From: Longimicrobiales bacterium
Lineage (GTDB): Bacteria; Gemmatimonadota; Gemmatimonadetes; Longimicrobiales; Gaopeijiaceae
Assembly: GCA_965116095.1 (NCBI GenBank)
Contig: OZ220481.1
Coordinates: 1,525,192-1,589,191, forward strand
Direction of reading: 5' to 3'
DNA: 64,000 bases
Positions 14,697-51,631 of this stretch are shown here, in pieces. The notes under the pieces were generated by a model. That model was not told the origin of the DNA. It worked only from the letters and a program-made list of their open reading frames with translations, and searched no databases. A program made the position numbers and the translations under genes. Positions within the stretch are counted from its first letter, which is position 1; every line of letters begins with the position of its first letter.

Positions 14697-15321
14697 GAGT
14701 CTCGGGTAAGTACCCGTAGGGACGCGTGAGCGCGCCAGTGGATGGAGGCTCGCCTCTCCATCGGGGTCGCAGCGCTTTGAGCGAATGTCCGTGGATTCGG
14801 TCGCGCCCCACAGTGGGTGCTTTGTGGAGGCGAAGCATTTCGACGACCGACCTCAGCATGTCCGTTCGAATCCGCTTGCTCTTGGGAAGCACTCCTTGAG
14901 GACGCACGGGTTCGGCGCCCCTGACGGCGCTGAGCGCGCAACGGACTGACGCGGAAGAGTGTGCGGCTCTTGACGCGAAATGATGTCGAGCGACTCTCTT
15001 TCGCCGAGAGGAGGGGAAATTGCGGAAAATCCAACCCAGCGGCATTATGGATGATGCAGTCGCTCTGCCCCATTCTCCGCCTGACAACCCTTAGTCCACA
15101 TCAACATGAGCCAAGACGGATTCCAGCGCGCGCTTGACCAGATCCGGTCCATTGCCACCCACCAAGCGGACAAGGGCCGGCTATTCGAGCGACTGATGGC
15201 GGCGTTCTTCAAGGAGGACCCCGTTTATCGAGAGCGATTCTCGGGAGTCTGGCTGTGGAAGGACTGGGTCGACAAGAGGCTCGCGGAGGCCGCAAAGTAC
15301 TGTCCTTCAAGGCGATACCAT

Positions 15322-15335
15322 CCCCCCCCCCCCCC
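15322..15335 (+). repeat. Homopolymeric poly-C tract (14 C) inside the restriction-modification gene, at the nuclease/helicase junction. Slippage-prone contingency tract.
   Basis: Seen directly. Translated as PPPPP in the 15106 ORF, which terminates 5 codons later. 13 or 16 C would fuse it in-frame to the downstream frame (GIDLVAEEADG...). Confidence 0.9.
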
Positions 15336-18300
15336 AATTTGGTTTAGATAGGGCTGATCTCGGCATTGATCTGGTCGCAGAAGAGGCGGACGGAAGTGGC
15401 TGGTGCGCGATCCAGTGCAAGTGCTACGCGCCGGGAACGCGCGTAAGCAAACGACACCTCGATTCCTTCATCTCGGCGTCGGCGCGCGAGCCGTTCACCG
15501 CGCGCATCGTGGTCGACACCGGGGACTCTTGGGGTCCGAACGCCCTAAAGACCCTCAAGGGGCTGAAGCCCGCCTGCGCGGTTCTCAGATTCGGCGACCT
15601 TGCGGACCGACGCTTTGAATGGCCGGATCTTTCGGCGCATCGGCCCGAGGATCTCCGCTACGCCGGCGCGCCGTTTACGCTTCGTCCGCACCAGAAAGAG
15701 GCGCTGGACGATGTAATGGCCGGCTTCGAGGCCTTTGATCGCGGCAAGCTGGTGATGGCATGCGGCACCGGCAAGACCTTTACCGCCCTTCGGATCGCGG
15801 AGGCGGTCGCGGGCCCCGGAGGCCGGGCGCTTTACTTGGTGCCTTCGATCTCACTGTTTGCGCAGTCTATGCGCGAGTGGGCCACGCAGAAGTCCATTCC
15901 TCACGGCTACATCGGCATCTGTTCGGATACAAGCGCGGGGCGCTACAGAGAAGACGCCACGCTGATGGAGCTTGAGATCCCGGTCACGACCTCGCCGGTT
16001 CGCATTTCGGAGGAGCTTCGCAAGGAGCGGCCGGAGCAGATGACGGTCGTGTTTTGCACCTACCAGTCGCTCCCGTTGGTGGAGCGCGCTCAACAAGAGG
16101 GGGCCCCGCCGTTCGATCTCATCCTCTGCGACGAGGCGCATCGGACCACCGGAGTGGAGCGAGCGGACGACAAGAAGACCTCGCCCTTCGTCCTCGTGCA
16201 CGACAACGCCCGAATTCGTGGACGCAAGCGGCTGTACATGACCGCGACGCCGCGCATCTACACGGACAGATCAAAGAGGAAGGCCGCCAAGCACAGCATT
16301 GACGTCTTCTCGATGGACGAGAAAGAGATCTACGGCCCCGAATTCCACCGCCTTTCCTTTTCGCGAGCGATTGAACGCGAGCTGCTCTCCGACTACAAGG
16401 TCGTCATTCTCGCCTTGGCGGAAGACAGGGCGAACGCAGTGCTCCGGAAGCACGTCTCCAGTAGCGAGGCGAGCGAACTCAACATCACCGACGCCGCCAA
16501 GATCATGGGCTGCTGGCGGGCGCTTCAGCGACGCCAGGCTGCGGGAGGCAACGGGAAAGCGGACGACGAGTCCGAACGCCCGCTTACGCGGGCGATCGCC
16601 TTCGCGAATACCATCAAGGCCTCCCGTCTTTTGGAAAAACACTGGGACGGCGTGGTCGAGCAGGCGATCAGCATGCTGCCGCCGGAGGAACGGGCGAGCG
16701 CGCTGCGATGCTCTACGAAGCACGTAGACGGAAAGACGCGGGCGCTGGACCGCAAGGCGCGGATCGAGTGGCTGAAGGGCAAGGAGGACGGCGTCTGCCG
16801 GATCCTGAGCAACGCCCGCTGTCTTTCGGAGGGCGTCGACGTACCGGCGCTGGACGCCGTGTTCTTTACCGCGCCGCGCAGGTCTCCCGTCGAGATCGTC
16901 CAAGCGGTGGGACGGGTCATGCGCAAAACCCCGGACAAGGACTACGGGTACATCGTGCTCCCGGTCGCCATTCCGCCGGGAGTGTCGCCGGAGAAGGCGC
17001 TGAACGACAACAAACGCTTCGAATCCGTGTGGGAGGTCCTGCGCGCGCTCCGCTCCCACGACGACCGGTTCGATGCCGAGGTCAACCGGCTCGATCTGAA
17101 GAGGCCGGAGCGGATCATTATCGACATCGACGACTCGGATCAGTGGGAGATCGCATTTCCGCCGCTCGACCTACCGCCCGAGGCGATCTTCGCGAAGATC
17201 GTCGAGAAGTGCGGCGACCGAAAGTACTGGAAAACGTGGGCCAGTGACATCGCCGACATTTTTGCTCGCTTAGTGGAGCGAATCGGGAGTCTTCTGGCCG
17301 ATCCAGCAAACGAAGCGCTCAAGGAGTGGTTTGACGGCTTCCACCAAGAGCTGCGCGAGTCGATCAACAAGTCGGTCAGCGAGAGCGACGCCGTAGACAT
17401 GGTTGCGCAACACATCCTCACTCGACCGGTTTTCAACGCGCTCTTCGAGGGATACGACTTTGCTCGTGGAAATCCCGTCGCGCGGGCGCTGGAGCAGCTG
17501 CGCCAAGACTTCGGAGAGTTTGGGCTGGAAAACGAGCTCCGCGACATGGAGCCCTTTTATAAAAGCGTCCGGCTTCGCGCCAGAGGTTTGGACGACAGCG
17601 CGGCGCGCCAACAGGTACTGAAAGAGCTGTACGAGCACTTCTTCAAGATCGCGCTAAGCAAGGCAGCCGAGCGCTTGGGAATCGTCTACACGCCCGTCGA
17701 GGTGGTGGACTTCATTCTTCGAAGCGCGGATCACGTGCTGCGGGAAGAGTTTGGCAAGGGGCTTACCGACGAGGGGGTACATGTACTGGATCCCTTCACC
17801 GGGACAGGCCTCTTTCCAGCGCGAATGCTCCAGCTTGACCTGATTGACGACGCCGACGTGGCGCGCAAGTACCAAGAGGAGATTCACGCAAATGAGATCG
17901 TACTGTTAGCCTACTACATCGCAGCGGTCAACGTCGAAGAGGCTTTTCGCGCAAGAAGGGGCCTCGGAAGTGAATACAGCCCTTTCGAGGGCATCGTTTT
18001 GACTGACACATTTAACATGAATGAGTGCCAGACGAGCGTCTTCCTGTCAGAAAACAGCGACCGATCCAGCCGGCAGGAACAGGCGCGCATTGAAGTAGTC
18101 GTTGGCAATCCGCCTTGGTCTGCAGGGCAACGGAGTTCTGCCGACAATAACCCAAACGCAAGATACCCGGCGGTGGAGGCGCGAATCGCGAAGACCTACG
18201 CGGTGCGCTCGACAGCAGCAAACAAAAACAGCTTGTACGATTATTACAAAATGGCCATTCGATGGGCCTCTGACCGCATCGGCGATCAGGGCGTCGTCGC

Positions 18301-19107
18301 TCTCGTAACGAATGGGTCTTGGATCAGCGGCAACGCGGATTCGGGAGTCCGCGCGTGTTTGGCGGAAGAGTTTACGTCAATCCATGTAGTGAATCTTAGA
18401 GGTAATCAGCGCACACAGGGCGAACGGTCTCTTCAAGAGGGCGGAAAGATTTTTGGCCAAAGCTCCCGTGCGCCAGTAGCGATTACGCTATTGGTTCGTA
18501 ACCCCAAGAAATACAAGAACGGGTGTCGTATCTTGTATCACGACATCGGCGACTACCTGAAACGAGAAGACAAACTCAAAATTCTGCGCAGGGTCAGGTC
18601 GATTCAGGGAATATCCCAAATCAATTCTAAAAATGGATGGCGAGAGATCACACCAGATCCACATCATGATTGGATCGATCAGCGAGATCCTCGCTTTCAA
18701 CGTTTTTTTCCAATTAGCGTAAAGGTCAGTGGAGCAGATAGAGATGCAAGACCGGATGCAGTGTTCCGCAAATACAGTCATGGGTATCAGACCGGCAAGG
18801 ACGCTCATGTGTATAGTTTCTCGCCCAAAGCCTGTCTAGACAATGCCCGCAGTATGATTGCTGAATATCACTGTGCCGTGCGTGAATACGCTGATAACAA
18901 GGATTCAGTTTTTCATCGATTTGCTTCAAATATAAAATGGAATGCAAAACTGCGAAATCGCGTTAAAAATGGACTTGCGCGCAAATTCTCCGATAAATAC
19001 CTGAGAAATGTTGCATATCGACCCTTTGTTGGACAAATTCTCTATGGGGATCAGTTTTTTGCACACAGGCCCGCACACACAAGAGCCATGTTCCCTACTA
19101 CTGAACA

Positions 19108-19140
19108 TCGGGGAACAGGAATCGGGGAACAGGAATCGGG
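19108..19140 (+). repeat. Direct tandem repeat of a 14-nt unit (tcggggaacaggaa, 2.4 copies) inside the restriction-modification gene
   Basis: Seen directly. Translated as EQESG / NRNR in the two overlapping frames. Confidence 0.8.
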
Positions 19141-19190
19141 TCATTTGTGTTTCGGGTTTGGGATCGACGAAGCCCTTCTCGACGCTCGTC

Positions 19191-19440
19191 GTCAACGTGC
19201 TTCCCGACTCGGAGCTGGTGTCAAAAGGACAGTGCTTTCCCCGTCACCTATACCGAACAACCGAGCGATCTGCCTTCCCGGCATTGGGTCCGGGAGAGAA
19301 TTCTCGGTCTTTATCGTTGACAGACTGCCGGATTACCACATCCTTACAAACGGGCAGTGCTTCCCTCGCTGTGATTGGGTCCATTCACGGGGGTACCTTT
19401 GACCACCCTGACGTGTTTTCCCAGGAGTCGCCGACACTCC
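19191..19440 (+). repeat. Imperfect tandem duplication of a unit of about 122 nt, with the two copies read in different frames (VVNVLPDSELVSKGQCFPRH... versus IVDRLPDYHILTNGQCFPRC...)
   Basis: Both overlapping ORFs (ending 19402 and starting 19008) carry an LPD-x7-GQCFPR peptide about 122 nt apart, not a multiple of 3. Confidence 0.6.
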
Positions 19441-31355: not shown

Positions 31356-32645
31356 CTAGCCCTGCTCGTCGTCCGCCGGACCGCCGATTCGCTTGCTTGC
31401 CTCGCCCAGCACCTGCGCCAGATCAATGCCCAAAAGGGACGAAATCGACTCCATCGTCCCATAGGCGCTCTGGAGCCTCTGGTTGAGCGCGTTGGCGGAG
31501 CCATCGCCGCTTCCGCCGTCCAGCACGACCATCCGGTCGATCTTTACGTCCTTCACGGCGTCGACCGCCGTCTGCATCAGCTCTGGAAGCTTGTCGGCCA
31601 AGAAAACCGCGAACGCCGCATCGCCGCCGGCCTGGGTCTGCTCATATAGCTGCCTCAAGACCTCCACGCGCGCCTTTCCTTCCTCAAGGAGCGGCGCCGC
31701 CTGCGCCTGCGCGTCGGCAAACGCCGCCAGCTTGCGGGCTTCAGCCGGCTCGATCACGTCCGCCCTGAGCCGCTGCTGCTCGCGCTCCACCCGTCTGACT
31801 TCCAAGGTCTTCTGCGCTTCCACCTCGGCTTCCTCCGCCTTCACCTTGGCGATCTTCTCGGCGGTTTCGGCCTCGCGTCCCAACTCGGCTTCCCGGACCC
31901 GCAGAGCGTTTTGGGCCTCCGCCACCTTTACTTCCGCCTGCGCTTCGCGGACGCGCGCTCGTCGTTTCGCGTCGGCCCTGGCCTCCCGCGTATCCGCTTC
32001 GGCGACCGCTTCGGCAATCTCTGCTTGGCGGATCGCCTCGGCCGACTTTTTTCGACCGATCGCGGCGAGGTAGCCTCTCTCGTCTGCGACGTTCTGGATC
32101 TTGAGCACATCCAAGTGGAAGCCCAGCGACGCCAAGTCCTCGCCCGCGTCATCGGACAGGGCCTTCCCGAAGCCAAGGCGATCCTCGTTCACTTCTTCCG
32201 GCGTGAGCGTCGCGAGGACGCCCCGGAGGTTGCCTGTCAGCGTATCCTGCGCGAGCAGGCGAATCTCCTCGTCGTCCTTCCCCAAGAGGCGCTCCACTGC
32301 GTTGTTGAAGACCCATTCGGGGTCCGAGGCGATCTTCACATTGGCGATCGCCTCGACGTTGAGCGGAATATTGCCCTTGGAAAAGGCGTTCGTGACCGAC
32401 ACCTCAATGGGGATCGTCTCCAAGTTGAGGTAATCGACCGTCTCCACGATCGGGATCCTCAGGGTCCGTCCACCCTTGATGGAGCGGAAACCGACCCGCC
32501 GCCCCTTTCCGGTGGCGCGGCTCTTTCCCGTGATCACCGCGGCAATGTTCGGGGGGACGATGACGATTAGCCGCTTGACGGTCAGGATCGCGGCGAGAAT
32601 CGCGAAGAGGACGGCGGCGGCGGCGAAGAGAACCGTTTCACTCAA
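31356..32645 (-). CDS. Flotillin / SPFH (band 7) domain protein with a long Ala/Glu-rich coiled coil
   Basis: SPFH core (IPIVETVDYLNLETIPIEV...), EA-repeat coiled coil. N-terminal TM. Start is uncertain (TTG at 32645 or ATG at 32726). Confidence 0.8.
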   Translation of the reverse strand: MSETVLFAAAAVLFAILAAILTVKRLIVIVPPNIAAVITGKSRATGKGRRVGFRSIKGGRTLRIPIVETVDYLNLETIPIEVSVTNAFSKGNIPLNVEAIANVKIASDPEWVFNNAVERLLGKDDEEIRLLAQDTLTGNLRGVLATLTPEEVNEDRLGFGKALSDDAGEDLASLGFHLDVLKIQNVADERGYLAAIGRKKSAEAIRQAEIAEAVAEADTREARADAKRRARVREAQAEVKVAEAQNALRVREAELGREAETAEKIAKVKAEEAEVEAQKTLEVRRVEREQQRLRADVIEPAEARKLAAFADAQAQAAPLLEEGKARVEVLRQLYEQTQAGGDAAFAVFLADKLPELMQTAVDAVKDVKIDRMVVLDGGSGDGSANALNQRLQSAYGTMESISSLLGIDLAQVLGEASKRIGGPADDEQG

Positions 32646-33312
32646 GGGACACGCTCCCGTTGGCGGGTGGTGAGCCGAGGGACGGACGAGGGTCGCCCGC
32701 CTCCAGAGCCGGCTGCGGCTCTTCAAGCGTTGAAATTAAGGCGACGCCTTGGCGCATTTCCACGACGACCGCCTGGCCGCCCCGGAGGATTGGAGGGCCG
32801 TCTTCGTCCCAGAGGCACGCGCGGAGGCGCAGCTGCTGGTCGCCGAACTGGACGGCCACGCTTCCGGGACTGTCCTTCTCTACCGGCAGAAGGACCGTGC
32901 CCGGTAGTCCTTCGTAGTCCTGTTCGGTGCTCAGTTCTCCCGCCTCCGTGCGGCGCAACAGACCGAAGAGGTAGTGCACCGAAAAGCCGGATGCGAGGCC
33001 CGCGCCGCTTGCGGCGAGCGCGGTAAGGAGCGTGCGCGCTCCTCCAAAGGCCAAGTGCATCGCGGTGCCGGACAAGCCGAACGCAAAGAGTGTGTAAATC
33101 AGAGCGCGGATGGAAAAGATCGCCGCCGGACCGGCAGCGTTGGCCCCATCCGGATCAATATCCAGCTCCGCCGCTCCGTCCGCCTCCGCGTCGCCGCCGA
33201 AGAGCGAGAAGAGGACCAAGCCTCCTCCGAGGATGAGGCACGCCGCGTAGGCAGTCAGCATTGAGGGGCGATAATTGACCCGAGGAGCGAGTGGTCGGAG
33301 CGACTTCCTCAT
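32638..33312 (-). CDS. NfeD-like membrane protein (short YuaF type), partner of flotillin
   Basis: N-terminal TM helices, C-terminal OB-fold-like VAVQFGDQQLRLRACLWDEDGPPILRGGQAVVVEMRQGVALI. Gene order nfeD then flotillin. Alternative start at 33261. Confidence 0.6.
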   Translation of the reverse strand: MRKSLRPLAPRVNYRPSMLTAYAACLILGGGLVLFSLFGGDAEADGAAELDIDPDGANAAGPAAIFSIRALIYTLFAFGLSGTAMHLAFGGARTLLTALAASGAGLASGFSVHYLFGLLRRTEAGELSTEQDYEGLPGTVLLPVEKDSPGSVAVQFGDQQLRLRACLWDEDGPPILRGGQAVVVEMRQGVALISTLEEPQPALEAGDPRPSLGSPPANGSVSLE

Positions 33313-33820
33313 GCGAGGGCGCGCTCCTCTTGATTCCGCCCGCCTTTCGGCAAGCGTCGCTCGGCGAGAGACGGCCCGCACACAGTACTGTACCGAAAGC
33401 GACTGGTTTGCCGCAAGCGATAGAAACCCGATGTTTCGGAATTTCAGAGAAAGACTGGAGCATGCTTCTCCCCGCCCGCGCCCTGCTTGTCGACAGCGGC
33501 TGCAGTGGAGAGTCGGTTTCGCCGACAACCACTCGCCGTGATCGAATTCGCCCGACATCGAAAAGCGAATGGACAAGCTCGCCAATTCGCTGCTGCTGAC
33601 CGTCCAGCACAGGCAGGAGGCGCTTGAGATCCCATGGGCGCAGACTCCCGGCGCTCCGGCATGCACGCCTTCATTGAGCGGCGCGCCATTCTCCTGGGCT
33701 AGTCCGAAGCGCGCTCGCGGGAGGCTTTGGCCGGTAGAGGTTTCCGCGTCGCCGTCTCGCGCTTTAACTGAAACTCCGATACGCCAACAAACTCGGTTCA
33801 ACAGCCTGCGCCCGCCTTCC

Positions 33821-33866
33821 AAGAAGAGAAGCGGGGTTCCAGAGCCTATGCTCCGGAACCCCGCTC
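33821..33866 (-). terminator. Rho-independent terminator candidate downstream of the large repeat protein gene
   Basis: Ten-bp GC-rich stem (gcggggttcc / ggaaccccgc) with a loop. On the minus strand it is followed by UUCUCUUCUU. Confidence 0.5.
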
Positions 33867-33902
33867 AATCCTCTAACGTCCGCGCGATTCAACCGGCGCC
33901 GT

Positions 33903-36900
33903 TTAGCTGAGCGGAACGTAGCTGATCCGAATGAACCCCTTGGTTTGGAGCGCATGGCATTGGTAGGCCGATGGCGGGTCAAACTCTTGATGCGCGCCCC
34001 ACGCCGCCTTGGTCGGATCATGCGGCACAATGATCCTCCTTGTTGCTGGGCGGCTCCACTTGGTGGAGTCCGGTTCGTTAAACACGCCGCTGCTTGGGTC
34101 GCATGCAACGCCATTACTGCCCCACTTCATCTCGAATTTTCCATCCTTGCTTTTCGCGCCGTTTTCTTGCTGCAAGACATAGCGGCCCGGAGCCAGCTCG
34201 ATTACGGGCTCGTGCCCATCAAGCTTGAGCCAAAAAGAGAGAATTTTGTCGTTGCCTTCCGTCACCATAGGGTACTTTCCGCCCACGTACCTCTTTAGCG
34301 TCGCTACCGAGTCGGTCCCGTAGTCGGCCACCGCCGAATCCGTAATCGTGAGCGCGTGATATCTGGGGTGAGAAAAGCCGTCGCCGCAATCCACGAAGGT
34401 GGTGTCGTTATTTCCGGCTCGCCTGCTTGAAGCTCCGCATTTGAAAAACGGAAATTCAATCATGCCCTCGTGCTTTTTCCTGCTCGAGTCCACCGAATCC
34501 TGCCCAGGGTACATCCACACCTTCGTCTTGATCTTCCGGTTCGCCACCATCCCAAAGCCCAAAGCCTGATGTCCGGGAGCCGCCAAGCCGCTTAGGCGCG
34601 GCCCCTCGTTGGCCGCGTATTCCTCCATGATCACGCCCGTCCGGTGATCCTGGCGCACCGCGTCCGTCTTGGCGCCCCAAGCGCCGCCGCCTGCACAGAG
34701 AACCGATTCTCCCTTGCACTGGAACCTCTTGTTGTCTCCGGCGAACGGCTCTTGAATCGTCGCCGCTTTGTCGAAGTTCTTTGTGTCCGTCTCGTTGTCG
34801 CTGGGGTATGCCAGCTGCGTTCCCGCGCCGGCAACGGTCACTTGGTAGACCTCCGACGGCAGCCCCTCGAACTCGAAGGTCCCGTCGTCGTCGGTCCGCG
34901 TCCGCCGGGCGTGGCCACGCGGCACCGACAGAATCTGCGTCGTCTCTTTCGCCTCAGCCTTCACCTTGCCCGTTACCCGCACCTTCAGCGATACCTGCTT
35001 GCCGCCCTGGACGAACGTTTGCGTCCCATCCACGTACGTCGCGCCGGACAAACCACGCGTCACGTTCGAACAATCGAGGTCCGCTGTCGGCGGGAGCGTG
35101 TCGGCGTCGTTGAAGCAGATGCCCGTCACGCGCACGGCCGCCCTGCCCTCGAGGCCCGCATCCATAAAGCGCGTCTCGTAGTGCGTCATCCCCTCCGGCA
35201 TCAGCTCCTTCAGGCCCGTCGCTTCGTCCGCGCCCACCGTCGCCATACCCAACGACATCGTCTCCGAATACGAAATGCCCGTAAACCGCGTCCCGTTGTC
35301 CTGCAACATCCGGAACATGTAGTCGGAGTCGCCCGCCGTAGCCGTCACCGCGTACGTGCCGTCCAGCATCTCCCGAATCACCGCCTTGCCCATGTCGTCC
35401 GTATTTTCCTCCATCGTCTTGCCGCCGTGCAGGGCCTTCGCCATTAGCTCGACGTCCATCCCGTCCGCATTCATCGGATCTCCGGCGCTCCTGAACATCG
35501 CCGACAACGAGTTGCCCATGCGCTTGTAGCCGAAGCTCGAACACATTTTCTTATCCCGAGGATTCGCCTTGCACGCCGCGTACATCGGCATGTGCGCCAT
35601 CGAGTTCGGATCCAAATCCATCGTCTCCGACCCCACGATCATCCCGCCCTCCTCCTCGAGCCACGAATCCAGCTCCGCCCGCAGCCGATACTTCCCCTCC
35701 TGCGTCATGACGCCCTTGAAGACGTGCGAGGAGTCCAGCATCGTCGTCGACGACACGATCTCCCAGCTCCCGCCGTCCGACATCTTCTCCAAGTGCAGCT
35801 CCACGTCGCCCTCCGACGGCGCCACGTCCTTCCTGTCCCCCGTGCACGTCTTGTCCGTCGCCTTCAGCGGCACGCACGACACGCCAGGCACGTCGTCCAG
35901 CTCCCGGTGCGCGCCGACCTTGACGTCCACCTTCTTGTGACCCACCACCAGCGTCCCCAGATGCATCGCCTCGTCCGGCGGATGCAGGCCGTTGTGCGTG
36001 AACTCCAAATACTCCATCCCCTCGTCGTCCATGTCGTGGTGGAAGTACAGATTCATGTCCTTCATCCCCACGCGATACTTCCCCGTCTTCGACGGCGCCG
36101 CCGTCAGCGTCAAGGACGCCGATCCGTTCGAGCCCGTCGTCGCCGTCGCCGACGCCGTCTTGCTCGTCCCCTTGAACGCCGCCACCTCCGCCTTGTTCAT
36201 GTACCCGCCGCCCGCGCTCCCCCGACGCACGCTCCGCACCGTCAACGACACGTTCGCCTTGTTCGCCAGGTACAGCAGCGGATCCATCGACTCCGACTTT
36301 AAGGACATCGGATCCACCATCGCCGTGTCCGTTGCGTCCTCCGCCTTAAAGTCCGCCGCCATATCTCCCATCGATCCCATGAGATACACCATGTTCCCCG
36401 CGAGAGAGCCCGTCGGAATCTCGAGCATCGCCATCCCGTCCTCGTCGGTCTTCGCCTCCGCCAGCGCCTCCTGACCCCACCCCTTCGCGTGATCCTCGGG
36501 GTCGCTCGCCACCGCCTTCACCATGACGCCCTCGACCCCCATGTCGCTCATGCAATCGTCCTTCGCGCAATTCGCGTAGCCGTACTTCGCCATCACGGTC
36601 AGCGAATGATGCGTCAGCTCGTACTCGAAGTCATGCTTCATCTCTTCGCCCGCATCCAGCTCGATCACCATCCCCGTCGTTCCCAGTCCGCCGCCCGTCA
36701 TCTTCGTGTGCGTCGGATTCATCGGAGGCGACGCGTACACCAGCCGGTAGCTCCCGGCTTTTAGCTCCCCGAAGCTGTACATCCCCATATCGTCCGTCAT
36801 TGCGGTCCTCGCGTCCGCCACGCCCGGCCCGTTCAACGTCAGCTTCACCGCGCCGGACAGACCCGCCGCGCCCGCGTCGCGCAGCGTCTTCTCGCCGCCC

Positions 36901-38339
36901 GCCAAAACCAGCATCCCCGAAACCCTCGCCGTGCGCACGTGCGTCCCGCTGAAGTTCGCCCGCGTCTCCATATCATCCATCGCCTCGACCTCCATCTCCA
37001 TCTCCTCGAAAGCGTACATCCCCATCTGCGCCTCCGTCGGCATGAGCGCTGCCATGTACGTCCCCGCCTTCAAGCCCCGGAAGGAGTACACCCCCGACGC
37101 ATCCGTAGTCGCGTTCATCGCCTCGTCCATGTCCCCGCCCGTCAAGCGCACCGCCATCCCGGCGACGAACATCCCCTCGACGCTCACCGCGCCCGCAATC
37201 GCCGCCGTCCGCAGCATCGATCCCTGAAAGTCCACCGTCCCCCGCTCCCCCGGATCCAGCGTTACTTCCCTCGAGGTCGCCGCAAACTCGTACGACTCCG
37301 CGTCGTACCCCGAGATCGACACCGTCCACGTCCCGGGCAGCAGCCCGGAAAAGACGTACATCCCGTCCGCGTCCGTTCGCGCGGACGGCGCATCCTCCGG
37401 CCCGTCCAACTCGACCACGGCGCCCTGAACCGGCTGACCGTCCGCAAGCACGTGCCCCGAAATCGACGCGCCCCTCAAGAACGTCCCCGAAAAGTCCGCC
37501 TTGACCACCGCGTTCGCCGCAGCCTCCACGTCCATCGACTCTTCGGAAAAACTCACGCGATCCGCGTCGTACCCCGATATCGTCACCGCGTAGCTCCCCG
37601 GCAGCAGATCCGCAAAGGCGTACATGCCGTCCGAATCCGTCGCCGCCCGATGCTCCTCGACTCCCGAAATCTCGACCGCGACGCCCGCCAAAGGCTCGCC
37701 CTCCGCCTCGACCACGCCTTCGATCCCCGCCGTGCGCAGCATCGTCCCGGCAAAGTCCGCCACCTCCGTCGACGCCACCGCCAGCGTCCGCGTCACGCTC
37801 GTCTCCGCAAAGGCGTACAAATCCGCGTCGAATCCCGAAATCTCCACCGTGTGCGTTCCCGCCCGAAGCCCCGAAAACGCATACGCGCCCATCGCGTCCG
37901 TCATGACCGATCCCTCGGACATCCCCGAAAGACGCACCGTCACGCCCTCAAGGCGCATGTCGCCGGCCATCACCGTACCCGTCAGCGCCGACGTCCGTAT
38001 CCACGACCCCGAAAAGTCCACCGTCACCGACTGACCCGCCGACGCTATCGTCGCAGACCCCGTCGCGGCGTCAAACGCCGCGTCCGCCGGATACCCCGTT
38101 ATCGACACCGCGTAGGTACCCGCCTCCACGCCGTCGAACCGATACGACCCGCCGCCCGACGTCGTCTGCGAACTCCCGTTCGACAGCGACACCGACACGC
38201 CGTCCAGCCCTTCCCCCTCCACCATCACCTTCCCCAGAATCGACCCCGCCTCGGGCGGCGCCGTAGCCTCGTCACAGGCCCACGCGCCTACCGCCAGCAG
38301 CGCCCCGATCCCGAGCGCCCTCATCTTGCCTCTGCTCAT
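33903..38339 (-). CDS. Giant secreted protein (about 1478 aa). It has a signal peptide, about eight CarboxypepD_reg-like (transthyretin-like) beta-sandwich repeats, an extremely Met-rich central region (~10 % Met) and a Cys-containing C-terminal domain of unknown function.
   Basis: Repeats of about 90 aa ending ...YxFxGLxAGTYTVxISGxDA. Start moved to MSRGKMRALGIGALLAVGAWAC, because the ORF-track start has no signal peptide and includes translated poly-G. Met count is about 10 to 11 per 100 aa over about 600 aa. Confidence 0.75.
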   Translation of the reverse strand: MSRGKMRALGIGALLAVGAWACDEATAPPEAGSILGKVMVEGEGLDGVSVSLSNGSSQTTSGGGSYRFDGVEAGTYAVSITGYPADAAFDAATGSATIASAGQSVTVDFSGSWIRTSALTGTVMAGDMRLEGVTVRLSGMSEGSVMTDAMGAYAFSGLRAGTHTVEISGFDADLYAFAETSVTRTLAVASTEVADFAGTMLRTAGIEGVVEAEGEPLAGVAVEISGVEEHRAATDSDGMYAFADLLPGSYAVTISGYDADRVSFSEESMDVEAAANAVVKADFSGTFLRGASISGHVLADGQPVQGAVVELDGPEDAPSARTDADGMYVFSGLLPGTWTVSISGYDAESYEFAATSREVTLDPGERGTVDFQGSMLRTAAIAGAVSVEGMFVAGMAVRLTGGDMDEAMNATTDASGVYSFRGLKAGTYMAALMPTEAQMGMYAFEEMEMEVEAMDDMETRANFSGTHVRTARVSGMLVLAGGEKTLRDAGAAGLSGAVKLTLNGPGVADARTAMTDDMGMYSFGELKAGSYRLVYASPPMNPTHTKMTGGGLGTTGMVIELDAGEEMKHDFEYELTHHSLTVMAKYGYANCAKDDCMSDMGVEGVMVKAVASDPEDHAKGWGQEALAEAKTDEDGMAMLEIPTGSLAGNMVYLMGSMGDMAADFKAEDATDTAMVDPMSLKSESMDPLLYLANKANVSLTVRSVRRGSAGGGYMNKAEVAAFKGTSKTASATATTGSNGSASLTLTAAPSKTGKYRVGMKDMNLYFHHDMDDEGMEYLEFTHNGLHPPDEAMHLGTLVVGHKKVDVKVGAHRELDDVPGVSCVPLKATDKTCTGDRKDVAPSEGDVELHLEKMSDGGSWEIVSSTTMLDSSHVFKGVMTQEGKYRLRAELDSWLEEEGGMIVGSETMDLDPNSMAHMPMYAACKANPRDKKMCSSFGYKRMGNSLSAMFRSAGDPMNADGMDVELMAKALHGGKTMEENTDDMGKAVIREMLDGTYAVTATAGDSDYMFRMLQDNGTRFTGISYSETMSLGMATVGADEATGLKELMPEGMTHYETRFMDAGLEGRAAVRVTGICFNDADTLPPTADLDCSNVTRGLSGATYVDGTQTFVQGGKQVSLKVRVTGKVKAEAKETTQILSVPRGHARRTRTDDDGTFEFEGLPSEVYQVTVAGAGTQLAYPSDNETDTKNFDKAATIQEPFAGDNKRFQCKGESVLCAGGGAWGAKTDAVRQDHRTGVIMEEYAANEGPRLSGLAAPGHQALGFGMVANRKIKTKVWMYPGQDSVDSSRKKHEGMIEFPFFKCGASSRRAGNNDTTFVDCGDGFSHPRYHALTITDSAVADYGTDSVATLKRYVGGKYPMVTEGNDKILSFWLKLDGHEPVIELAPGRYVLQQENGAKSKDGKFEMKWGSNGVACDPSSGVFNEPDSTKWSRPATRRIIVPHDPTKAAWGAHQEFDPPSAYQCHALQTKGFIRISYVPLS

Positions 38340-38532
38340 ACGCGCTTTCCCTTTCCTAAGTGCGCGCCGGAAAGCCCGGCCCGAGCCCATGACGGACCCG
38401 TTCAAACCGAAGCCTCCCGCGCCTTCCCGCACACGCAAACCCAAGCGCATGCGTTTCGGCACGCCTATATAGGTGCAAGAGTCGTGCCAAAAATGAGAAA
38501 AATTGCGTAAATACCTGCGGTTCAAGGAGATA

Positions 38533-38550
38533 CCCCCCCCCCCCCCCCCC
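38533..38550. repeat. Homopolymeric C18 (G18 on the minus strand) tract in the divergent promoter region between the giant protein gene and the PQQ dehydrogenase gene
   Basis: Seen directly. About 190 bp from each flanking start codon. Confidence 0.9.
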
Positions 38551-38574
38551 ATTTTCTCCGCGATGCGCGAAAAC

Positions 38575-38607
38575 TCGAATTTTCGACGACCCTCATCGAA
38601 ATTTCGA
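38575..38607. promoter_or_regulatory. Pair of 12-bp palindromic operator-like sites, TCGAATTTTCGA (38575..38586) and TCGAAATTTCGA (38596..38607), 21 bp centre to centre, plus a GC-rich hairpin (38631..38660)
   Basis: Seen directly. AT-rich palindromes stand out in about 68 % GC DNA. Spacing is two helical turns. Confidence 0.35.
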
Positions 38608-38741
38608 CACTTGAAGGGCCGGGTTGAGACCAGAAGGCCGTCCCGCATTTCGCGGGAGGCCTCTAACTACGCAGTCGCCGCCGAAGTGGTTGTTTCCTAC
38701 GTTTACCTGAACGCCGACAAACGGAGCGGCGGCGAAACGAC

Positions 38742-40784
38742 GTGAAACGGTTGGTTCAAAGATCCCCGAGGCGCGCGATAGGAAGATCTGACGGAGAGAC
38801 GCACGGCGAGCATCTTCGGCTCGCGCCGCGTCTTTGTGCTGCTTTCGCAGCGGCGCTCTTTGCTTTGGGCGGGCCCGCTCTCGCCCAAAAGGGGGCGCTC
38901 GGGGGAGAGTGGAGGCACTACGCGGGCGACTACGGCGCCACGCGCTACTCCGCGCTGGATCAGATTCACGCGGGCAACGCCGATTCGCTGAACATCGCGT
39001 GGCGCTGGACCGCCGCAAACTTCGGTCCCGTTCCTGAAGTGAATTATCGGACGACGCCGCTGATGGCGAACGGAGTCCTCTTTGCGACCGCGGGATACAG
39101 GAGGACGGTCGTCGCCATCGACGCGGGAACGGGCGAGACCCTTTGGACATATCGCTTGGACGAAGGCGACCGCTCGGCGCCCAGACGCAATTCGGGGCGT
39201 GGCGTCGCCCTCTGGGAGGATTCTCGCGGCAGGCTCAGGGTCTACGTCGTCTCTCCTGGCTTTCAGTTGATCTCGCTTGATGCCGCGACCGGCCTTCCCG
39301 TGCAAGGCTTCGGAAGCCAAGGCATCCTGGACCTCAGGGCGGGACTCGTGCCGCCCGGCGAGCTGGAGACCACCCCGCTGGGATCCTCCTCTCCGCCGGT
39401 CATTCTGGACGACGCGCTCGTTGTCGGATCGGCGCTTCCCTCCGGCGCGGCCCCGCCGTCGCCTGAAATGCCGAAGGGCTTCGTCCGAGGGTACGATCCA
39501 GAGACCGGCGAGCTCCTCTGGACCTTCCACACGATTCCCCGGCCCGGCGAATTCGGACATGAGAGCTGGGAAGGGGACTCTTGGAGCTATACTGGAAACA
39601 CCGCCGTCTGGACTCCCTTTTCCGCAGATCCTCGGACCGGCGTCGTCTACCTCCCCGTCGAGGCGCCGACGGGAGACTACTACGGGGGTCACCGGCTCGG
39701 CGACAATCTCTTTTCCCAGAGCTTGGTCGCGGTGCGCGCCCGCGACGGAAGGCGCGTCTGGCACTACCAGACGGTGCGTCACGGCATCTGGGACTACGAT
39801 CCGCCGGCGCCCCCGATCCTGGCCGATGTCGAAATAGGCGGACAGCTGCGCAACATTGTCGCGCTGCTTACGAAGCAGGGATTCACCTTCGTCTTCGACC
39901 GCGCAACTGGAGAGCCGATCTGGCCGATTGAAGAACGCGCCGTGCCCGAGAGCGACGTTCCCGGCGAACGCGCCTCCCCCACGCAACCATTTCCTACGAA
40001 GCCGCCGCCCTTTGATCGCCAAGGCGTGGATCCCGCCGAGCTCATCGACTTCACGCCGGAGCTTCGGGCCGAAGCCCTGGAAATCATCTCTCGCCTGCGC
40101 CACGGTCCGCTCTACACGCCGCCCTCCCTTGTATCGGAGTCGGGCACCCAAGGCACGCTGATGGTGCCGGGTTCGCTGGGCGGAGCCAACTGGCCGGGCG
40201 GCGCACTTGACCCTGAAACCGGCCTGCTCTACGTGCAGTCGGTCACCGCTCCAAGCGTGATCGCGCTCCGCGCCGACCCGGAAATCTCACAGATGCGATA
40301 CGTGCGCGGCGGCGGCCTTCGGCTGCGGGGAGGCGGCGGACCCAGGGGCCTTCCTCTCTTTCGCCCTCCTTGGGGGCGAATCACGGCGATCGACCTCAAG
40401 AGCGGGGAGATCGCATGGCAGATCCCAAATGGAGAGGCGCCGGAGTACGTACGAGAACACCCAGCGCTGGAAGGCGTCCAGGTTGGGCGCACGGGCCGGC
40501 CCGACCGAGGCGGACTGCTTGCGACGCGCACGCTGCTCTTTGCCGGCGAGGGGGGCGGAATGTACGCGGCCTACGGGTCCGGCGGCCGCATGTTTCGCGC
40601 GCACGACAAGTCGACCGGCGAGATCCTCGCCGAAATCGAACTCCCGGCGAATCAGACGGGGCTTCCGATGACCTACATGCACGAGGGCCGTCAGTTCATC
40701 GTGCTGGCGGTGGGCGCGCAGCGGCATCCGGGAGAGCTGGTCGCCCTCACGCTTCCGGAGCGCCCCGCGCCCGGGAGACCGTAA
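38742..40784 (+). CDS. PQQ-dependent dehydrogenase (quinoprotein glucose/alcohol dehydrogenase family, 8-bladed propeller), secreted
   Basis: WRHYAGDYGATRYSALDQI, repeated W-containing PQQ propeller motifs. Signal peptide. Exact start is uncertain. Confidence 0.8.
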   Translation: MKRLVQRSPRRAIGRSDGETHGEHLRLAPRLCAAFAAALFALGGPALAQKGALGGEWRHYAGDYGATRYSALDQIHAGNADSLNIAWRWTAANFGPVPEVNYRTTPLMANGVLFATAGYRRTVVAIDAGTGETLWTYRLDEGDRSAPRRNSGRGVALWEDSRGRLRVYVVSPGFQLISLDAATGLPVQGFGSQGILDLRAGLVPPGELETTPLGSSSPPVILDDALVVGSALPSGAAPPSPEMPKGFVRGYDPETGELLWTFHTIPRPGEFGHESWEGDSWSYTGNTAVWTPFSADPRTGVVYLPVEAPTGDYYGGHRLGDNLFSQSLVAVRARDGRRVWHYQTVRHGIWDYDPPAPPILADVEIGGQLRNIVALLTKQGFTFVFDRATGEPIWPIEERAVPESDVPGERASPTQPFPTKPPPFDRQGVDPAELIDFTPELRAEALEIISRLRHGPLYTPPSLVSESGTQGTLMVPGSLGGANWPGGALDPETGLLYVQSVTAPSVIALRADPEISQMRYVRGGGLRLRGGGGPRGLPLFRPPWGRITAIDLKSGEIAWQIPNGEAPEYVREHPALEGVQVGRTGRPDRGGLLATRTLLFAGEGGGMYAAYGSGGRMFRAHDKSTGEILAEIELPANQTGLPMTYMHEGRQFIVLAVGAQRHPGELVALTLPERPAPGRP

Positions 40785-43014
40785 CCCGCCCGCTCGCGTC
40801 CACAAGCACCCTCACGGTGCCGTGCAGGTCCGTGCGATGAACGAGAACGCCTCGACTTTCGAGCGCCTCAATCACTTCCGGCGCCGGATGGCCGTGTCGA
40901 TTGCGTCGTCCAGCACTGATGATCGCATGATCCGGGCGCACCCGCTCAAGAAACGCATCGCCGGTGGAGGTGCGGCTGCCGTGGTGGCCCACCTTCAGGA
41001 TGTCGGACTGTTCCAGCCGATCCAGAATCCGATCCTCCGCCGCTTTGTTTGCATCCCCCATCAGCAGAATCCGAACGCCCGCGTACGTGGCGAGGAGGAT
41101 GACGGAGAGTTCGTTGGGCCCGATGTCGCGTTGAAGATGGGCTTGGGCGTCCGGACCCAAAACCTCGAACAGCACTCCGTCCGTGCGCCACGAGACGCCG
41201 TCATGGACGCGGCGCCAAGGGATATTCTCGGCGCGCGCCGCCGCGACGCCCGCCGCGTGTCCGCTCTGCCCGAACGCGGTGCCGGGGCCAAGCACGCTGC
41301 CTGCCCGAAAGGCGCGAAGCACCGAAGCGAGCCCTCCCGCATGATCCTGGTCCGAATGAGTAAGCAGGACCGTCTCCAGCCGAGTCGCGCCCCGCGCCCG
41401 AAGAAATGGGACGACGCGTCTTTGGCCCGCGTCGCCCCCTTGGTAGGCGGGCCCCGCGTCGATGAGCATCCAGCGACCCATAGGCGTCCTGATCGCAAGC
41501 GCGTCGCCCTGCCCCACGTCGATGGCCGACAGCTCCAGCCGACCCCTTCCCAGGAGATGCTGCGCCGCTTCGCCCAAATGAAGCGCGCTGACTGCGGAGA
41601 GGACCGCGACTAACAGCTTTAGGCCGCCGCTTGCGCGCGGACGCATCCGAAGAAGAAAGAGCGACAGAAGCGCGCCGCCCGTGAGCAGCGTGGCCTCCAA
41701 GGGAGAGGCGCTGACGACGGTATGCGGGATTTGCGCGAGCGCCTTCGCCGCGATCGCGAGAAAGGAGAGCAGCGTGTCCGCCGCTCCGCCTGCGACGGAG
41801 GCCCCTGGAAGGCCCAGAATATCCAGCGCCGCCGCCGCGAAGATCCCTGGAACCGCAGCAACGACCAGCGGCGTCAGGGCCAAAGAGGAAGGCAGCGAGA
41901 GAAGCGGAATCTCTCCGAAGTGGATTGCAAGCACCGGGGCCGTAAACACACTCGCCCCGGCTCCGACGGCTGCGGCCTGAAGCGTTCGACCGAGCCAGCC
42001 CCTAGCGGCCGTCAGCCGCCGACGCGCCCACCGATCCGCGAATAGAATTCCCAAGACGCCGGTCAACGTCAGCTGAAAGCCGGCATGAGAAGCGACGGAA
42101 GGATCGACCAGCGTCATCACGAGGGCCGCGCAGGCAAGCGCTCCCAAGGGGTGTACGGGAACGCCTTTGATTCGCCCAACCGATAGCGCTGAAATCATCC
42201 ACGCGGCCCGAACGGCCGATGTCGGCGCGCCGATCAGCGCCACGTACGCCCATACGACGACGGGCACGAGGATCGCCCTTGCGCGAAAAGTCGCCTTCAG
42301 CGCGGCGAGAAAGAGGCCCCAGAGCAGCCCGACGATTCCCACGTGGAATCCGGAAATGGCCAGCAGGTGCGCGATCCCGGCTCTCGCGAAGGCCTCGCGC
42401 AGCTCCGGCGAAATCCCGTCGCGGTCGGCCAGCGAAAGCGCTTTGGCCATCCCCGCGCGCTCCGGTATCCGACGCTCCAAGGCGAGCGACGCCCTCTCGC
42501 GCGCCCGAGCCGTCCACCTGGCGACAAGAGGAACCTCGGCTTCCGCCGCCTTTGCGTCCTCCGCGCGCGCAAAGAACACTGGCGACAAGCCGCGTCCCAA
42601 GCCCCACTCGCCCGGGATGCGAAGCGGGGCGCCCGCAGCAGGCGGCGCGCCGCGCCCCGCGAGGTATACCCGGACCTTTGCGCAAGCGCTCCGCGGGGCG
42701 CCGGTCCGCACGAACGAGCTCGCGCCCTGGAGGCGCGCCACCGCAAAGTAGCCCTCGATTGCCGCAGCGCGACCCGCCGCGGCTTCTCTTCGGCACCTCT
42801 CAAGGGAAGCCTCGTGAGCCCCTCTCCATCCGGCGCCCGCGGCGAAGGCCGCCGCGACGGCGACGAACGTCGATTTTGGGCCGATCCATAGCCCTAGGGG
42901 AACGACTAGCAGCGCAGCCGCAAGAAGGCCGGACCCTGCCGGAAGAAGAAAATGAAGGGCGGCGCCGGAAACGAAGCCGAAGGCCGCCCAAGCTACGGGC
43001 GGGCCGGTGGTCAA
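40747..43014 (-). CDS. comEC: DNA internalization competence protein ComEC/Rec2 (competence domain plus C-terminal metallo-beta-lactamase domain)
   Basis: AGIAHLLAISGFHVG competence motif. MBL HxHxDH-like LLTHSDQDHAGG. Confidence 0.85.
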   Translation of the reverse strand: MTTGPPVAWAAFGFVSGAALHFLLPAGSGLLAAALLVVPLGLWIGPKSTFVAVAAAFAAGAGWRGAHEASLERCRREAAAGRAAAIEGYFAVARLQGASSFVRTGAPRSACAKVRVYLAGRGAPPAAGAPLRIPGEWGLGRGLSPVFFARAEDAKAAEAEVPLVARWTARARERASLALERRIPERAGMAKALSLADRDGISPELREAFARAGIAHLLAISGFHVGIVGLLWGLFLAALKATFRARAILVPVVVWAYVALIGAPTSAVRAAWMISALSVGRIKGVPVHPLGALACAALVMTLVDPSVASHAGFQLTLTGVLGILFADRWARRRLTAARGWLGRTLQAAAVGAGASVFTAPVLAIHFGEIPLLSLPSSLALTPLVVAAVPGIFAAAALDILGLPGASVAGGAADTLLSFLAIAAKALAQIPHTVVSASPLEATLLTGGALLSLFLLRMRPRASGGLKLLVAVLSAVSALHLGEAAQHLLGRGRLELSAIDVGQGDALAIRTPMGRWMLIDAGPAYQGGDAGQRRVVPFLRARGATRLETVLLTHSDQDHAGGLASVLRAFRAGSVLGPGTAFGQSGHAAGVAAARAENIPWRRVHDGVSWRTDGVLFEVLGPDAQAHLQRDIGPNELSVILLATYAGVRILLMGDANKAAEDRILDRLEQSDILKVGHHGSRTSTGDAFLERVRPDHAIISAGRRNRHGHPAPEVIEALESRGVLVHRTDLHGTVRVLVDASGRVTVSRARGAPEA

Positions 43015-51387: not shown

Positions 51388-51631
51388 TTCGCATGGCGTC
51401 GTCAACCCCAACGGGCGCAGTCGCCCGGTCTCCGCCTTTAGATTCCAGCTTGGCCCAAGGCGTCGGGCTCGTCCGATGTCCTGCGGGAGGAGCACGAGTC
51501 GCGGACGGTCGATTCCCGCGATCCTCGCGATGAGCCTTTGCGCGGCGCCCTCCGACCGCCTTCCACCCAAACTGTGAATCTCGACGCGACGACGAAGATC
51601 TCTCCTTCGCACCCGACCTGAGGAATCTTGC

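What the first reader, a model, noticed from the sequence alone, without database searches (positions are those of the whole stretch)
38533..38550. C18 homopolymer centred in the divergent promoter region between the Met-rich giant protein gene and the PQQ dehydrogenase gene
An 18-nt poly-C (poly-G on the other strand) sits about 190 bp upstream of both divergently transcribed genes. Promoter-located poly-C tracts drive phase-variable expression of Bordetella fim genes, and poly-G tracts do so in Neisseria. This is the second long homopolymer in one 64-kb window of a 68 % GC genome, which suggests that homopolymer-based contingency loci may be a feature of this organism. The supplied ORF 38503..38745 (MRKYLRFKEIPPPPPP...) is just this tract translated.
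Basis: partly seen in the sequence, partly recalled or inferred. Interest (0 to 1): 0.6.

Follow-up and report, generated by a model that had tools for sequence, protein, structure and literature searches.

The report
Poly-C tract upstream of sigma-54 promoter
A run of 18 C's sits between a conserved sigma-54 promoter and a likely activator site upstream of one of ten near-identical giant surface-protein genes in a Gemmatimonadota genome, so it is a credible but unproven slippage-based expression dial.

Summary
The C18 run (38533-38550) is real and far beyond chance. The only other long run in the window is a C14 at 15322-15335. The tract is not in a sigma-70 -35/-10 spacer, and nothing ties it to the PQQ dehydrogenase gene. 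It belongs to the control region of the minus-strand giant gene. It lies 43 bp upstream of an exact sigma-54 promoter (TGGCACGACTCTTGCA, 38489-38474), and the same promoter type precedes homologous giant lipoprotein genes in five other Gemmatimonadota genomes. Upstream of the tract are two 13-bp near-palindromes 21 bp apart, a likely activator site. The gene is one of ten full-length paralogues in the same 2.86-Mb contig, with conserved N-terminal parts and hypervariable C-terminal parts. The C14 frameshifts a Type ISP restriction-modification gene; C13 or C16 would restore it. Both tracts share a 29-nt left flank (21/29 matches), which I cannot explain. Best reading: a Bordetella-fim-like contingency tract that changes activator-to-promoter spacing at a sigma-54 promoter. 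Length variation, the paralogues' promoters and the rest of the genome could not be examined, and the exact tract length is not trustworthy.

The parts
38533..38550 (.). C18 homopolymer (G18 on the strand of the giant gene), about -70 to -87 from the predicted sigma-54 transcription start
38474..38489 (-). Exact sigma-54 promoter TGGCACGACTCTTGCA (-24 GG at 38488/38487, -12 GC at 38476/38475); predicted start about 38463, giving a leader of about 124 nt
   Evidence: The only exact match in the window. The same element lies upstream of homologous genes in L004, L005 and L010, with near-consensus versions in L011 and L012.
38575..38608 (.). Two 13-bp near-palindromes TCGAATTTTCGAC and TCGAAATTTCGAC, 21 bp start to start, centred about -117 and -138: candidate binding sites for an enhancer-binding protein (UAS)
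   Evidence: the only exact copies in the window. The function is inferred.
38506..38532 (.). Box next to the tract (CGTAAATACCTGCGGTTCAAGGAGATA), shared with the C14 locus
   Evidence: family D8; 21/29 matches; 4 of 20000 random pairs reach this
38489..38502 (.). Two A5/T5 tracts 9 nt apart, immediately upstream of the -24 element: a possible intrinsic bend
   Evidence: Read directly from the sequence. The function is inferred.
38636..38661 (.). Stable G+C-rich hairpin between the palindromes and the PQQ-DH side: a possible insulator, terminator or cassette boundary
   Evidence: z-score -3.5 and -3.8 on the two strands
33903..38339 (-). Giant Met-rich secreted, lipoprotein-like protein (1478 aa, CarboxypepD_reg/SdrD_B repeats). 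It is one of ten paralogues in the genome.
33829..33866 (-). 17-bp-stem intrinsic terminator after the giant gene, which makes the gene monocistronic
38742..40784 (+). PQQ-dependent dehydrogenase ORF (start codon uncertain). No evidence links the tract to it.
15322..15335 (+). Second tract, C14, inside the Type ISP R-M gene. The present length is out of frame; C13 or C16 restores a 1431-aa ORF.
15291..15319 (+). Copy of the box next to the tract (CGCAAAGTACTGTCCTTCAAGGCGATACC) within the Type ISP coding sequence
15106..19402 (+). Type ISP restriction-modification gene (Mrr_cat_2, ResIII/helicase, ISP_coupler, N6_Mtase, Type_ISP_C), split by the C14

Best explanation
The C18 is a slippage-prone spacer in the enhancer-to-promoter interval of a sigma-54-dependent promoter. 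That promoter drives one member of a ten-paralogue family of giant, variable, secreted lipoprotein-like proteins. Read 5'->3' on the gene's strand, the layout is: hairpin, two palindromic sites 21 bp apart, 24 bp, G18, a 27-nt box, two phased T5 tracts, the -24/-12 promoter, a leader of about 124 nt, the ORF, and a terminator. If an enhancer-binding ATPase binds the palindromes, it must loop over only about 90-115 bp to reach sigma-54 holoenzyme. Each C gained or lost by slipped-strand mispairing then rotates the activator by about 34 degrees around the helix and changes the loop length. That would give heritable, reversible, graded or on/off changes in expression of this paralogue. Shown here: the tract, the promoter and its conservation in other genomes, the paralogue family, the palindromes and the geometry. 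Inferred: activator binding, dependence of expression on tract length, and hypermutability.
For: The tract is a clear outlier from the run-length distribution. The exact sigma-54 consensus occurs once in 64 kb, at 38474-38489, and its strand and position, upstream of the giant gene's ATG at 38339, follow. By my own base-composition estimate, about 0.05 exact matches are expected in the window. Exact sigma-54 promoters also lie 69-185 nt upstream of homologous giant lipoprotein genes in L004, L005 and L010, and near-consensus ones in L011 and L012. In each of L004, L005 and L010 it is the only exact match in a 10-12 kb locus. Tandem palindromes 21 bp apart occur exactly only here, at a distance typical of upstream activating sequences (own knowledge). 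Ten full-length paralogues sit on the same contig, with N-terminal parts 87-96% identical and C-terminal parts 53-67% identical with indels. That is the profile of a variable surface-protein family, the usual cargo of contingency loci. A second tract in the window sits in a restriction-modification gene in an out-of-frame state, another classic phase-variable gene class (PMC12707154). Precedents: the Bordetella fim2/fim3/fimX/fimN promoters carry a C-stretch of C7-C22 next to a conserved 'fim box' (PMC1891110), and the H. pylori sabA T-tract acts as a rheostat (PMC4081817).
Against: There are no data on tract-length variation. No close relative (above 75% aa identity) or alternative assembly was found. 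The nine other paralogues' promoters could not be retrieved, so it is unknown whether the tract is a family feature. None of the five homologous promoters in other genomes has a homopolymer of 7 or more, so the promoter type works without one. No enhancer-binding protein or rpoN gene lies in the window. Sigma-54 enhancers often tolerate changes in distance, so length changes could have little effect. The role of the palindromes is unproven, and they could serve the PQQ-DH gene instead.
Confidence: 0.4

Rival explanations
1. A neutral mutational by-product. A C-rich stretch expanded by slippage in a spacer that tolerates length change, because sigma-54 enhancers can act at variable distance. 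It may vary in length but has no selected function.
For: Five homologous sigma-54 promoters in other genomes have no tract. No functional data exist. Both tracts are C on the same strand and share a flank, which could reflect a local mutational or recombinational peculiarity rather than selection.
Against: Runs of 8-13 are entirely absent from the window, while two very long runs sit at exactly the two gene classes that are classically phase-variable: a variable surface-protein family and an R-M enzyme.
Confidence: 0.25
2. A structural DNA element whose effect does not depend on length variation. Options are a rigid poly(dG).poly(dC) segment, or a G-quadruplex or i-motif (18 nt is just enough for four runs of three) that forms under negative supercoiling and modulates looping or protein access at the promoter.
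For: A length of 18 meets the minimum for an intramolecular G4 or i-motif (inference). The tract lies next to phased A/T tracts that suggest an architecturally organised loop.
Against: There is no evidence for such structures here. The same kind of tract also occurs inside a coding sequence, where the obvious effect is on reading frame.
Confidence: 0.1
3. The tract acts on the PQQ-dehydrogenase gene. It would sit either in that gene's promoter, or in its 5' leader as poly-C RNA, comparable to the G-repeat in the H. pylori tlpB leader targeted by the small RNA RepG.
For: The tract is 192 bp upstream of the first possible start of that ORF. The gene's true start and promoter are unknown.
Against: In relatives the entire region upstream of PQQ-DH is 134-200 bp and has no tract. 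No sigma-70-like promoter was found around the tract. A stable hairpin (38636-38661) lies between the tract and the gene. Rfam finds no leader element.
Confidence: 0.07
4. A sequencing or assembly artefact, or at least a wrongly called length.
For: The contig is 2.86 Mb, so it probably comes from long reads, where long homopolymers are poorly resolved. Many database homologues of the Type ISP protein are truncated by frameshifts. The out-of-frame C14 could be a length error.
Against: Two tracts with a specific shared flank are not a known artefact pattern. With C13 the Type ISP ORF reads through a loop that is 2 residues longer than in its nearest homologues (19 aa against 17). That argues that the tract is really there, even if its exact length is uncertain.
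Confidence: 0.08
5. An intragenic translational switch. This follows the database gene model P0241 (1581 aa from ATG 38648), which reads the tract as Gly6.
For: The ORF is open from 38648, and the deposited protein uses that start.
Against: All nine paralogues start at MSR(S/G)K(T/M)RALGIGALL, which corresponds to ATG 38339. The 103-codon extension has GC3 of 0.66 against 0.84 for the gene. The sigma-54 promoter lies inside the supposed extension.
Confidence: 0.02

Closest known systems
Bordetella fim2/fim3/fimX/fimN promoter 'C-stretch' (PMC1891110)
   Same: A long poly-C (C7-C22 there, C18 here) lies in the promoter between an activator-binding region and the core promoter. It is next to a conserved box, in a family of paralogous surface-structure genes. 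Slippage changes transcription.
   Different: There the promoter is sigma-70 type, activated by BvgA, and the tract lies directly upstream of the -10 region. Here the core promoter is sigma-54 type, the tract is at about -70 to -87, and the activator is unknown. Length variation and its effect on expression are demonstrated there and untested here.
H. pylori sabA promoter-proximal T-tract 'rheostat' (PMC4081817)
   Same: A homopolymer upstream of the core promoter changes the axial alignment between upstream elements and RNA polymerase, giving graded output rather than a simple on/off switch.
   Different: That tract is T/A, lies next to the -35 element of a sigma-70-type promoter, and acts through UP-like elements and the polymerase alpha subunits. 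No looping activator is involved.
Neisseria opc/porA-type tracts between -35 and -10
   Same: A poly-C or poly-G tract in a promoter of a surface-protein gene.
   Different: No -35 or -10 hexamers flank this tract, and it lies outside the core promoter.
Phase-variable Type I/III R-M systems (phasevarions; PMC12707154)
   Same: The C14 tract sits in the coding sequence of an R-M enzyme, and one-base slippage switches the frame.
   Different: The enzyme here is a single-polypeptide Type ISP. I found no report of a phase-variable Type ISP. This applies to the companion tract, not to the C18.
Face-of-the-helix dependence and intrinsic curvature at sigma-54 promoters such as K. pneumoniae nifLA and nifH (own knowledge, not checked in the library)
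   Same: Activator sites about 100-140 bp upstream, bent or A-tract DNA in between, and activation that is sensitive to helical phase at short distances.
   Different: No natural case is known to me in which a hypermutable repeat supplies the phase change.

Membership tests
Promoter-located homopolymeric contingency locus (Bordetella fim type) | Homopolymer much longer than the composition predicts | tested here: met
   C18; 2e-4 to 3e-5 expected per window; no runs of 8-13
Promoter-located homopolymeric contingency locus (Bordetella fim type) | Tract lies between an activator-binding site and the core promoter | tested here: inconclusive
   The core sigma-54 promoter is well supported. The upstream palindromes are only candidate activator sites.
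Promoter-located homopolymeric contingency locus (Bordetella fim type) | Tract length is polymorphic within or between populations | not testable with these tools
   No reads are available. No close relatives or alternative assemblies were found, and the genome is absent from the searchable collections.
Promoter-located homopolymeric contingency locus (Bordetella fim type) | Transcription depends on tract length | not testable with these tools
   Requires reporter fusions or RNA data.
Promoter-located homopolymeric contingency locus (Bordetella fim type) | Controlled gene encodes a surface or variable product, often in a paralogous family | tested here: met
   Signal peptide followed by a Cys. 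Ten paralogues with hypervariable C-terminal parts.
Sigma-70 spacer tract (Neisseria opc/porA type) | Tract lies between recognisable -35 and -10 hexamers | tested here: not met
   No sigma-70-like promoter in 38200-38950 on either strand.
Sigma-54-dependent promoter | TGGCAC-N5-TTGCW with GG and GC 10 nt apart, upstream of the gene on the correct strand | tested here: met
   Exact match at 38489-38474, 136 nt from the ATG.
Sigma-54-dependent promoter | Element conserved upstream of homologous genes | tested here: met
   3 of 5 loci are exact and 2 of 5 near-consensus.
Sigma-54-dependent promoter | rpoN and a cognate enhancer-binding protein present in the genome | not testable with these tools
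   Neither is in the window. The one GSFTGA motif is in an ABC ATPase. The rest of the genome could not be retrieved.
Intragenic frameshift switch | Tract lies inside the translated ORF | tested here: not met
   For the C18: the paralogues' start codons, GC3, and the promoter lying inside the annotated extension all argue against it. The feature is met for the companion C14.
Mobile or repeated element carrying the tract | Box plus poly-C recurs in other genomes or in viruses | tested here: not met
   GTDB species representatives gave 1 chance hit. JGI metagenomes gave 4 chance-level hits in unrelated low-GC contigs. Viral contigs gave 0. Recurrence elsewhere in this genome could not be tested.
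Known RNA family (riboswitch or leader) | Match to an Rfam model | tested here: not met

The most novel reading that the evidence does not exclude
The 29-nt box plus poly-C is a portable 'contingency cassette'. It would be native to the sigma-54 promoters of the ten-member giant-lipoprotein family and would have been copied by gene conversion into a hypervariable loop of the Type ISP R-M gene. Hypermutable switches would then spread between unrelated loci in this Gemmatimonadota genome. The C18 would also be the first natural case of a simple-sequence repeat tuning enhancer-to-promoter phasing at a sigma-54 promoter, allowing combinatorial expression of a variable surface-protein repertoire in a free-living environmental bacterium.
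Probability: 0.12. Interest if true: 0.8.

Novelty: new variant of a known kind. Interest (0 to 1): 0.55.

Why it matters
Simple-sequence contingency loci are known almost entirely from host-adapted pathogens and from sigma-70-type promoters or coding regions. If this tract varies and matters, it would extend the principle in two ways. First, it would apply to a barely studied environmental phylum, Gemmatimonadota. Second, it would apply to sigma-54 enhancer-dependent promoters, where helical phasing offers a natural graded control. The ten-paralogue family with a conserved N-terminal part and a hypervariable C-terminal part would be a candidate variable surface repertoire, for example against phages or predators, or for substrate binding. 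The shared box at two unrelated tracts hints at a way in which such switches arise or spread.

Tried and rejected
1. Retrieving the source genome or the paralogues' upstream DNA. The exact-protein look-ups for P0001, P0242 and P0244 found nothing on record, and the cluster look-up gave no accession. The genome-contig scan showed that the genome is not in that collection.

2. Box plus poly-C as a widespread element. Only chance-level hits were found in genomes and metagenomes, and none in viruses.

3. An enhancer-binding protein in the window. The single GSFTGA motif is in an ABC-transporter ATPase.

4. Defining the PQQ-DH promoter by conservation. The upstream alignment with L002 and L003 is unreliable; only a shared TTTCCTACG 9-mer stands out.

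5. An RNA element. Rfam found nothing at gathering scores or at E<=1, and there are no tRNAs.

6. An adapter or template-switch-oligo origin for the box. I considered this by eye only. The similarity to the SMART oligo is patchy, the orientation is wrong, and with C13 the Type ISP reading frame is restored across the patch, so I rejected it without a formal test.

7. A terminal inverted-repeat partner for the box. Only a weak 13-nt, 77% inverted repeat exists (38514-26 and 38610-22), and the C14 locus has no counterpart.

8. Literature search for a repeat between an upstream activating sequence and a sigma-54 promoter, or for a phase-variable Type ISP enzyme. No direct precedent was found.

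Full report
OBSERVATION. The + strand reads ...GGTTCAAGGAGATA-C18-CATTTTCTCC..., with the run at 38533-38550. A census of all homopolymers shows C-run counts falling smoothly to two runs of length 7. There is nothing at 8-13, then a C14 (15322-15335) and this C18. The expected number of C runs of 18 or more in 64 kb is 2e-4 under an iid model and 3e-5 under a first-order Markov model. The window is 65.1% G+C, not 68%. The tract is 194 bp from the giant gene's ATG (38339) and 192 bp from the first possible start of the PQQ-dehydrogenase ORF at 38742. The exact length should not be trusted to within 1-2 nt, because the sequencing technology behind the contig is unknown.

ORGANISM AND GENES. The PQQ dehydrogenase (PF01011) has its best named homologues in Gemmatimonadota. 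An identical protein (P0001) is recorded on a single 2,856,470-bp NCBI/ENA contig, and the next-best hits are only about 75% identical. No close relatives are therefore available for comparing non-coding DNA. The minus-strand gene (33903-38339) encodes a 1478-aa protein. It has a signal peptide followed by a Cys and carries CarboxypepD_reg and SdrD_B repeats. Homologues in other genomes have canonical lipoboxes.

THE TRACT BELONGS TO THE GIANT GENE, NOT TO A SHARED DIVERGENT PROMOTER. In two relatives (L002, L003) the order is Band_7, then a 193-aa NfeD-like gene, then PQQ-DH, with only 134-200 bp upstream of PQQ-DH and no tract. In the window the NfeD-like orthologue ends at about 33261. The giant gene and its flanks (about 33262-38685) are therefore a lineage-specific insertion. 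The gene is followed by a terminator with a 17-bp stem at 33866-33829, so it is monocistronic. A stable hairpin at 38636-38661 separates its control region from the PQQ-DH side. No sigma-70-like promoter is found in 38200-38950, and no Rfam family matches.

A SIGMA-54 PROMOTER. On the minus strand, 38489-38474 reads TGGCACGACTCTTGCA. This is the only exact match to TGGCAC-N5-TTGCW in the window, and from base composition I estimate about 0.05 exact matches by chance. I fetched five homologous giant lipoprotein genes from other Gemmatimonadota genomes. Three have an exact match 69-185 nt upstream of the ATG: L004 (TGGCACCATTCTTGCT), L005 (TGGCACCACAATTGCA) and L010 (TGGCACGCCTCTTGCA, one base different from the window). 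In each of these it is the only exact match in a 10-12 kb locus. The other two loci have near-consensus elements that keep the GG and GC: L011 (CGGCACAGATGTTGCA) and L012 (TGGCGCCGATTTTGCC). Sigma-54-dependent transcription of this gene class is therefore conserved, which fits the proposed role of sigma-54 in controlling the cell exterior (PMC3162934). With the C at 38475 taken as -12, the start site is about 38463 and the leader about 124 nt. The tract then spans about -70 to -87 (corrected by one base on re-reading).

UPSTREAM ARCHITECTURE. Immediately upstream of the -24 element are two A5/T5 tracts 9 nt apart (38489-93 and 38498-502), which may form an intrinsic bend. Beyond the tract lie TCGAATTTTCGAC (38575-87) and TCGAAATTTCGAC (38596-608), 21 bp apart (two helical turns). 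They are the only exact copies of this palindrome in the window. Their centres are about 93 and 114 bp from the -24 GG, or 8.9 and 10.9 helical turns with C18. C19-C20 would put them exactly in phase, and about C14 or C25 half a turn out of phase. This is the geometry of an upstream activating sequence for an enhancer-binding ATPase, and the tract acts as the spacer. Whether an activator binds there is inference. No such protein and no rpoN gene lie in the window.

A TEN-MEMBER PARALOGUE FAMILY. The same contig encodes nine further full-length paralogues (P0242-P0247, P0361, P0364, P0365). Mean pairwise identity is 87-96% over the first 1000 residues. It falls to 53-67%, with many indels, over the last roughly 500 alignment columns. 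All nine start with MSR(S/G)K(T/M)RALGIGALL. The database model of the window gene (P0241, 1581 aa, which reads the tract as GGGGGG) therefore carries a false 103-aa extension. The extension has GC3 of 0.66 against 0.84 for the gene, and the sigma-54 promoter lies inside it. A family with a conserved anchor and a hypervariable distal part is what contingency loci usually control. The paralogues' promoters could not be retrieved.

THE SECOND TRACT AND THE SHARED BOX. [quoted passage not shown] The present length is out of frame, and C13 or C16 would give an uninterrupted 1431-aa protein. The tract falls in a roughly 17-19-aa loop that only the nearest homologues share (...SGPPVQL... there...YHPPPPQF... 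here). At the DNA level, identity with a homologue (L013) is about 80% on both sides but collapses over about 15270-15355, where the window carries a GC-poor patch. The two tracts share their left flank: CGCAAAGTACTGTCCTTCAAGGCGATACC against CGTAAATACCTGCGGTTCAAGGAGATACC, with 21 of 29 positions matching. Only 4 of 20,000 random pairs from the window do as well. The box plus poly-C is not found in GTDB species representatives, JGI metagenomes or viral contigs beyond chance-level hits. I cannot explain this similarity. The most economical idea is that the box belongs to the paralogue-family promoters and a patch was copied into the R-M gene. That needs the rest of the genome to test.

MECHANISM AND COMPARISON. 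The best-supported reading is a contingency tract that changes activator-to-promoter spacing and phase at a sigma-54 promoter. It works like the Bordetella fim C-stretch, which is C7-C22, lies next to a conserved 'fim box', occurs in four paralogous fimbrial genes, and has a length-dependent effect on transcription (PMC1891110). It also resembles the H. pylori sabA T-tract rheostat (PMC4081817). It is not a Neisseria-type -35/-10 spacer tract. I found no report of a repeat between an enhancer and a sigma-54 promoter, nor of a phase-variable Type ISP enzyme. The rivals are a neutral expansion in a length-tolerant spacer, a length-independent structural element (G4 or i-motif), an effect on PQQ-DH, and an artefact. 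They are listed with their evidence in the rival explanations.

VERDICT. The tract is best filed as a new variant of a known kind: a promoter homopolymer in a sigma-54 setting, in Gemmatimonadota. Hypermutability and function are untested. Confidence in the proposed mechanism is 0.4 and interest is 0.55.

Noticed in passing
window 33903-38339, plus proteins P0242-P0247, P0361, P0364, P0365 (same 2.86-Mb contig): There are ten full-length paralogues of a roughly 1470-1510-aa Met-rich CarboxypepD_reg protein in one small genome. The N-terminal 1000 aa are 87-96% identical and the C-terminal roughly 400-500 aa are hypervariable with indels. The substitution pattern looks mosaic, as gene conversion would produce.
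   Followed up: partly
window 15291-15340 and 38506-38555: The two poly-C tracts share a 29-nt left flank (21/29 matches, p about 2e-4) although one is in a promoter and the other inside an R-M coding sequence. This is unexplained.
   Followed up: partly
window 15106-19402: A Type ISP R-M gene is frameshifted by the C14 (C13 or C16 would restore it). Its 3' specificity end drops to about 50% G+C (18-19 kb), which suggests horizontal acquisition or domain swapping.
   Followed up: partly
window 38340-38648 (-): The deposited gene model (P0241, 1581 aa) starts 103 codons too early and translates the promoter and the G18 as protein.
   Followed up: yes
window 38742-38870: The PQQ-dehydrogenase has no canonical start codon just upstream of its signal-peptide-like segment (RLCAAFAAALFALGGPALA). 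The options are GTG 38742 or TTG 38751, which give a long odd N-terminus, or the database's TTG 38865, which removes the signal peptide. This may reflect an indel or an unusual start.
   Followed up: no
window 33262-33902: About 640 bp downstream of the giant gene are apparently non-coding. ORF 32638..33822 is real only from about 33261 (the NfeD-like part).
   Followed up: partly
L004 2854-2876, L005 2905-2927 (5' leaders); partial in L010: A conserved leader element, TTGACAACCCTTGACAATCGTC, lies downstream of the sigma-54 promoters of giant lipoprotein genes in other Gemmatimonadota. It is absent from the window's leader.
   Followed up: no
L004, L005, L010, L012 and window 40747-43014: In other Gemmatimonadota the giant lipoprotein gene sits in a conserved ComEC - FBPase - giant gene arrangement. 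In the window, ComEC lies just beyond PQQ-DH, on the opposite strand to the PQQ-DH gene.
   Followed up: no
L013 2540-2560 and proteins P0121-P0240: Many database homologues of the Type ISP N-terminus are truncated by frameshifts, for example at a C4G3 run in L013. These are either assembly errors or frequent natural inactivation of this enzyme class.
   Followed up: no
window 38636-38661: A stable G+C-rich hairpin (about -22 to -23 kcal/mol, z about -3.5 to -3.8) lies between the palindromes and the PQQ-DH side. It may be a bidirectional terminator or a cassette boundary.
   Followed up: partly
window 50449-52054 and 54521-54637: There is a 300-nt direct repeat (73% identity, 1306 bp apart) with FxDPDGD-like units in a large + strand ORF, and separately three tandem 33-42-nt repeats.
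   Followed up: no
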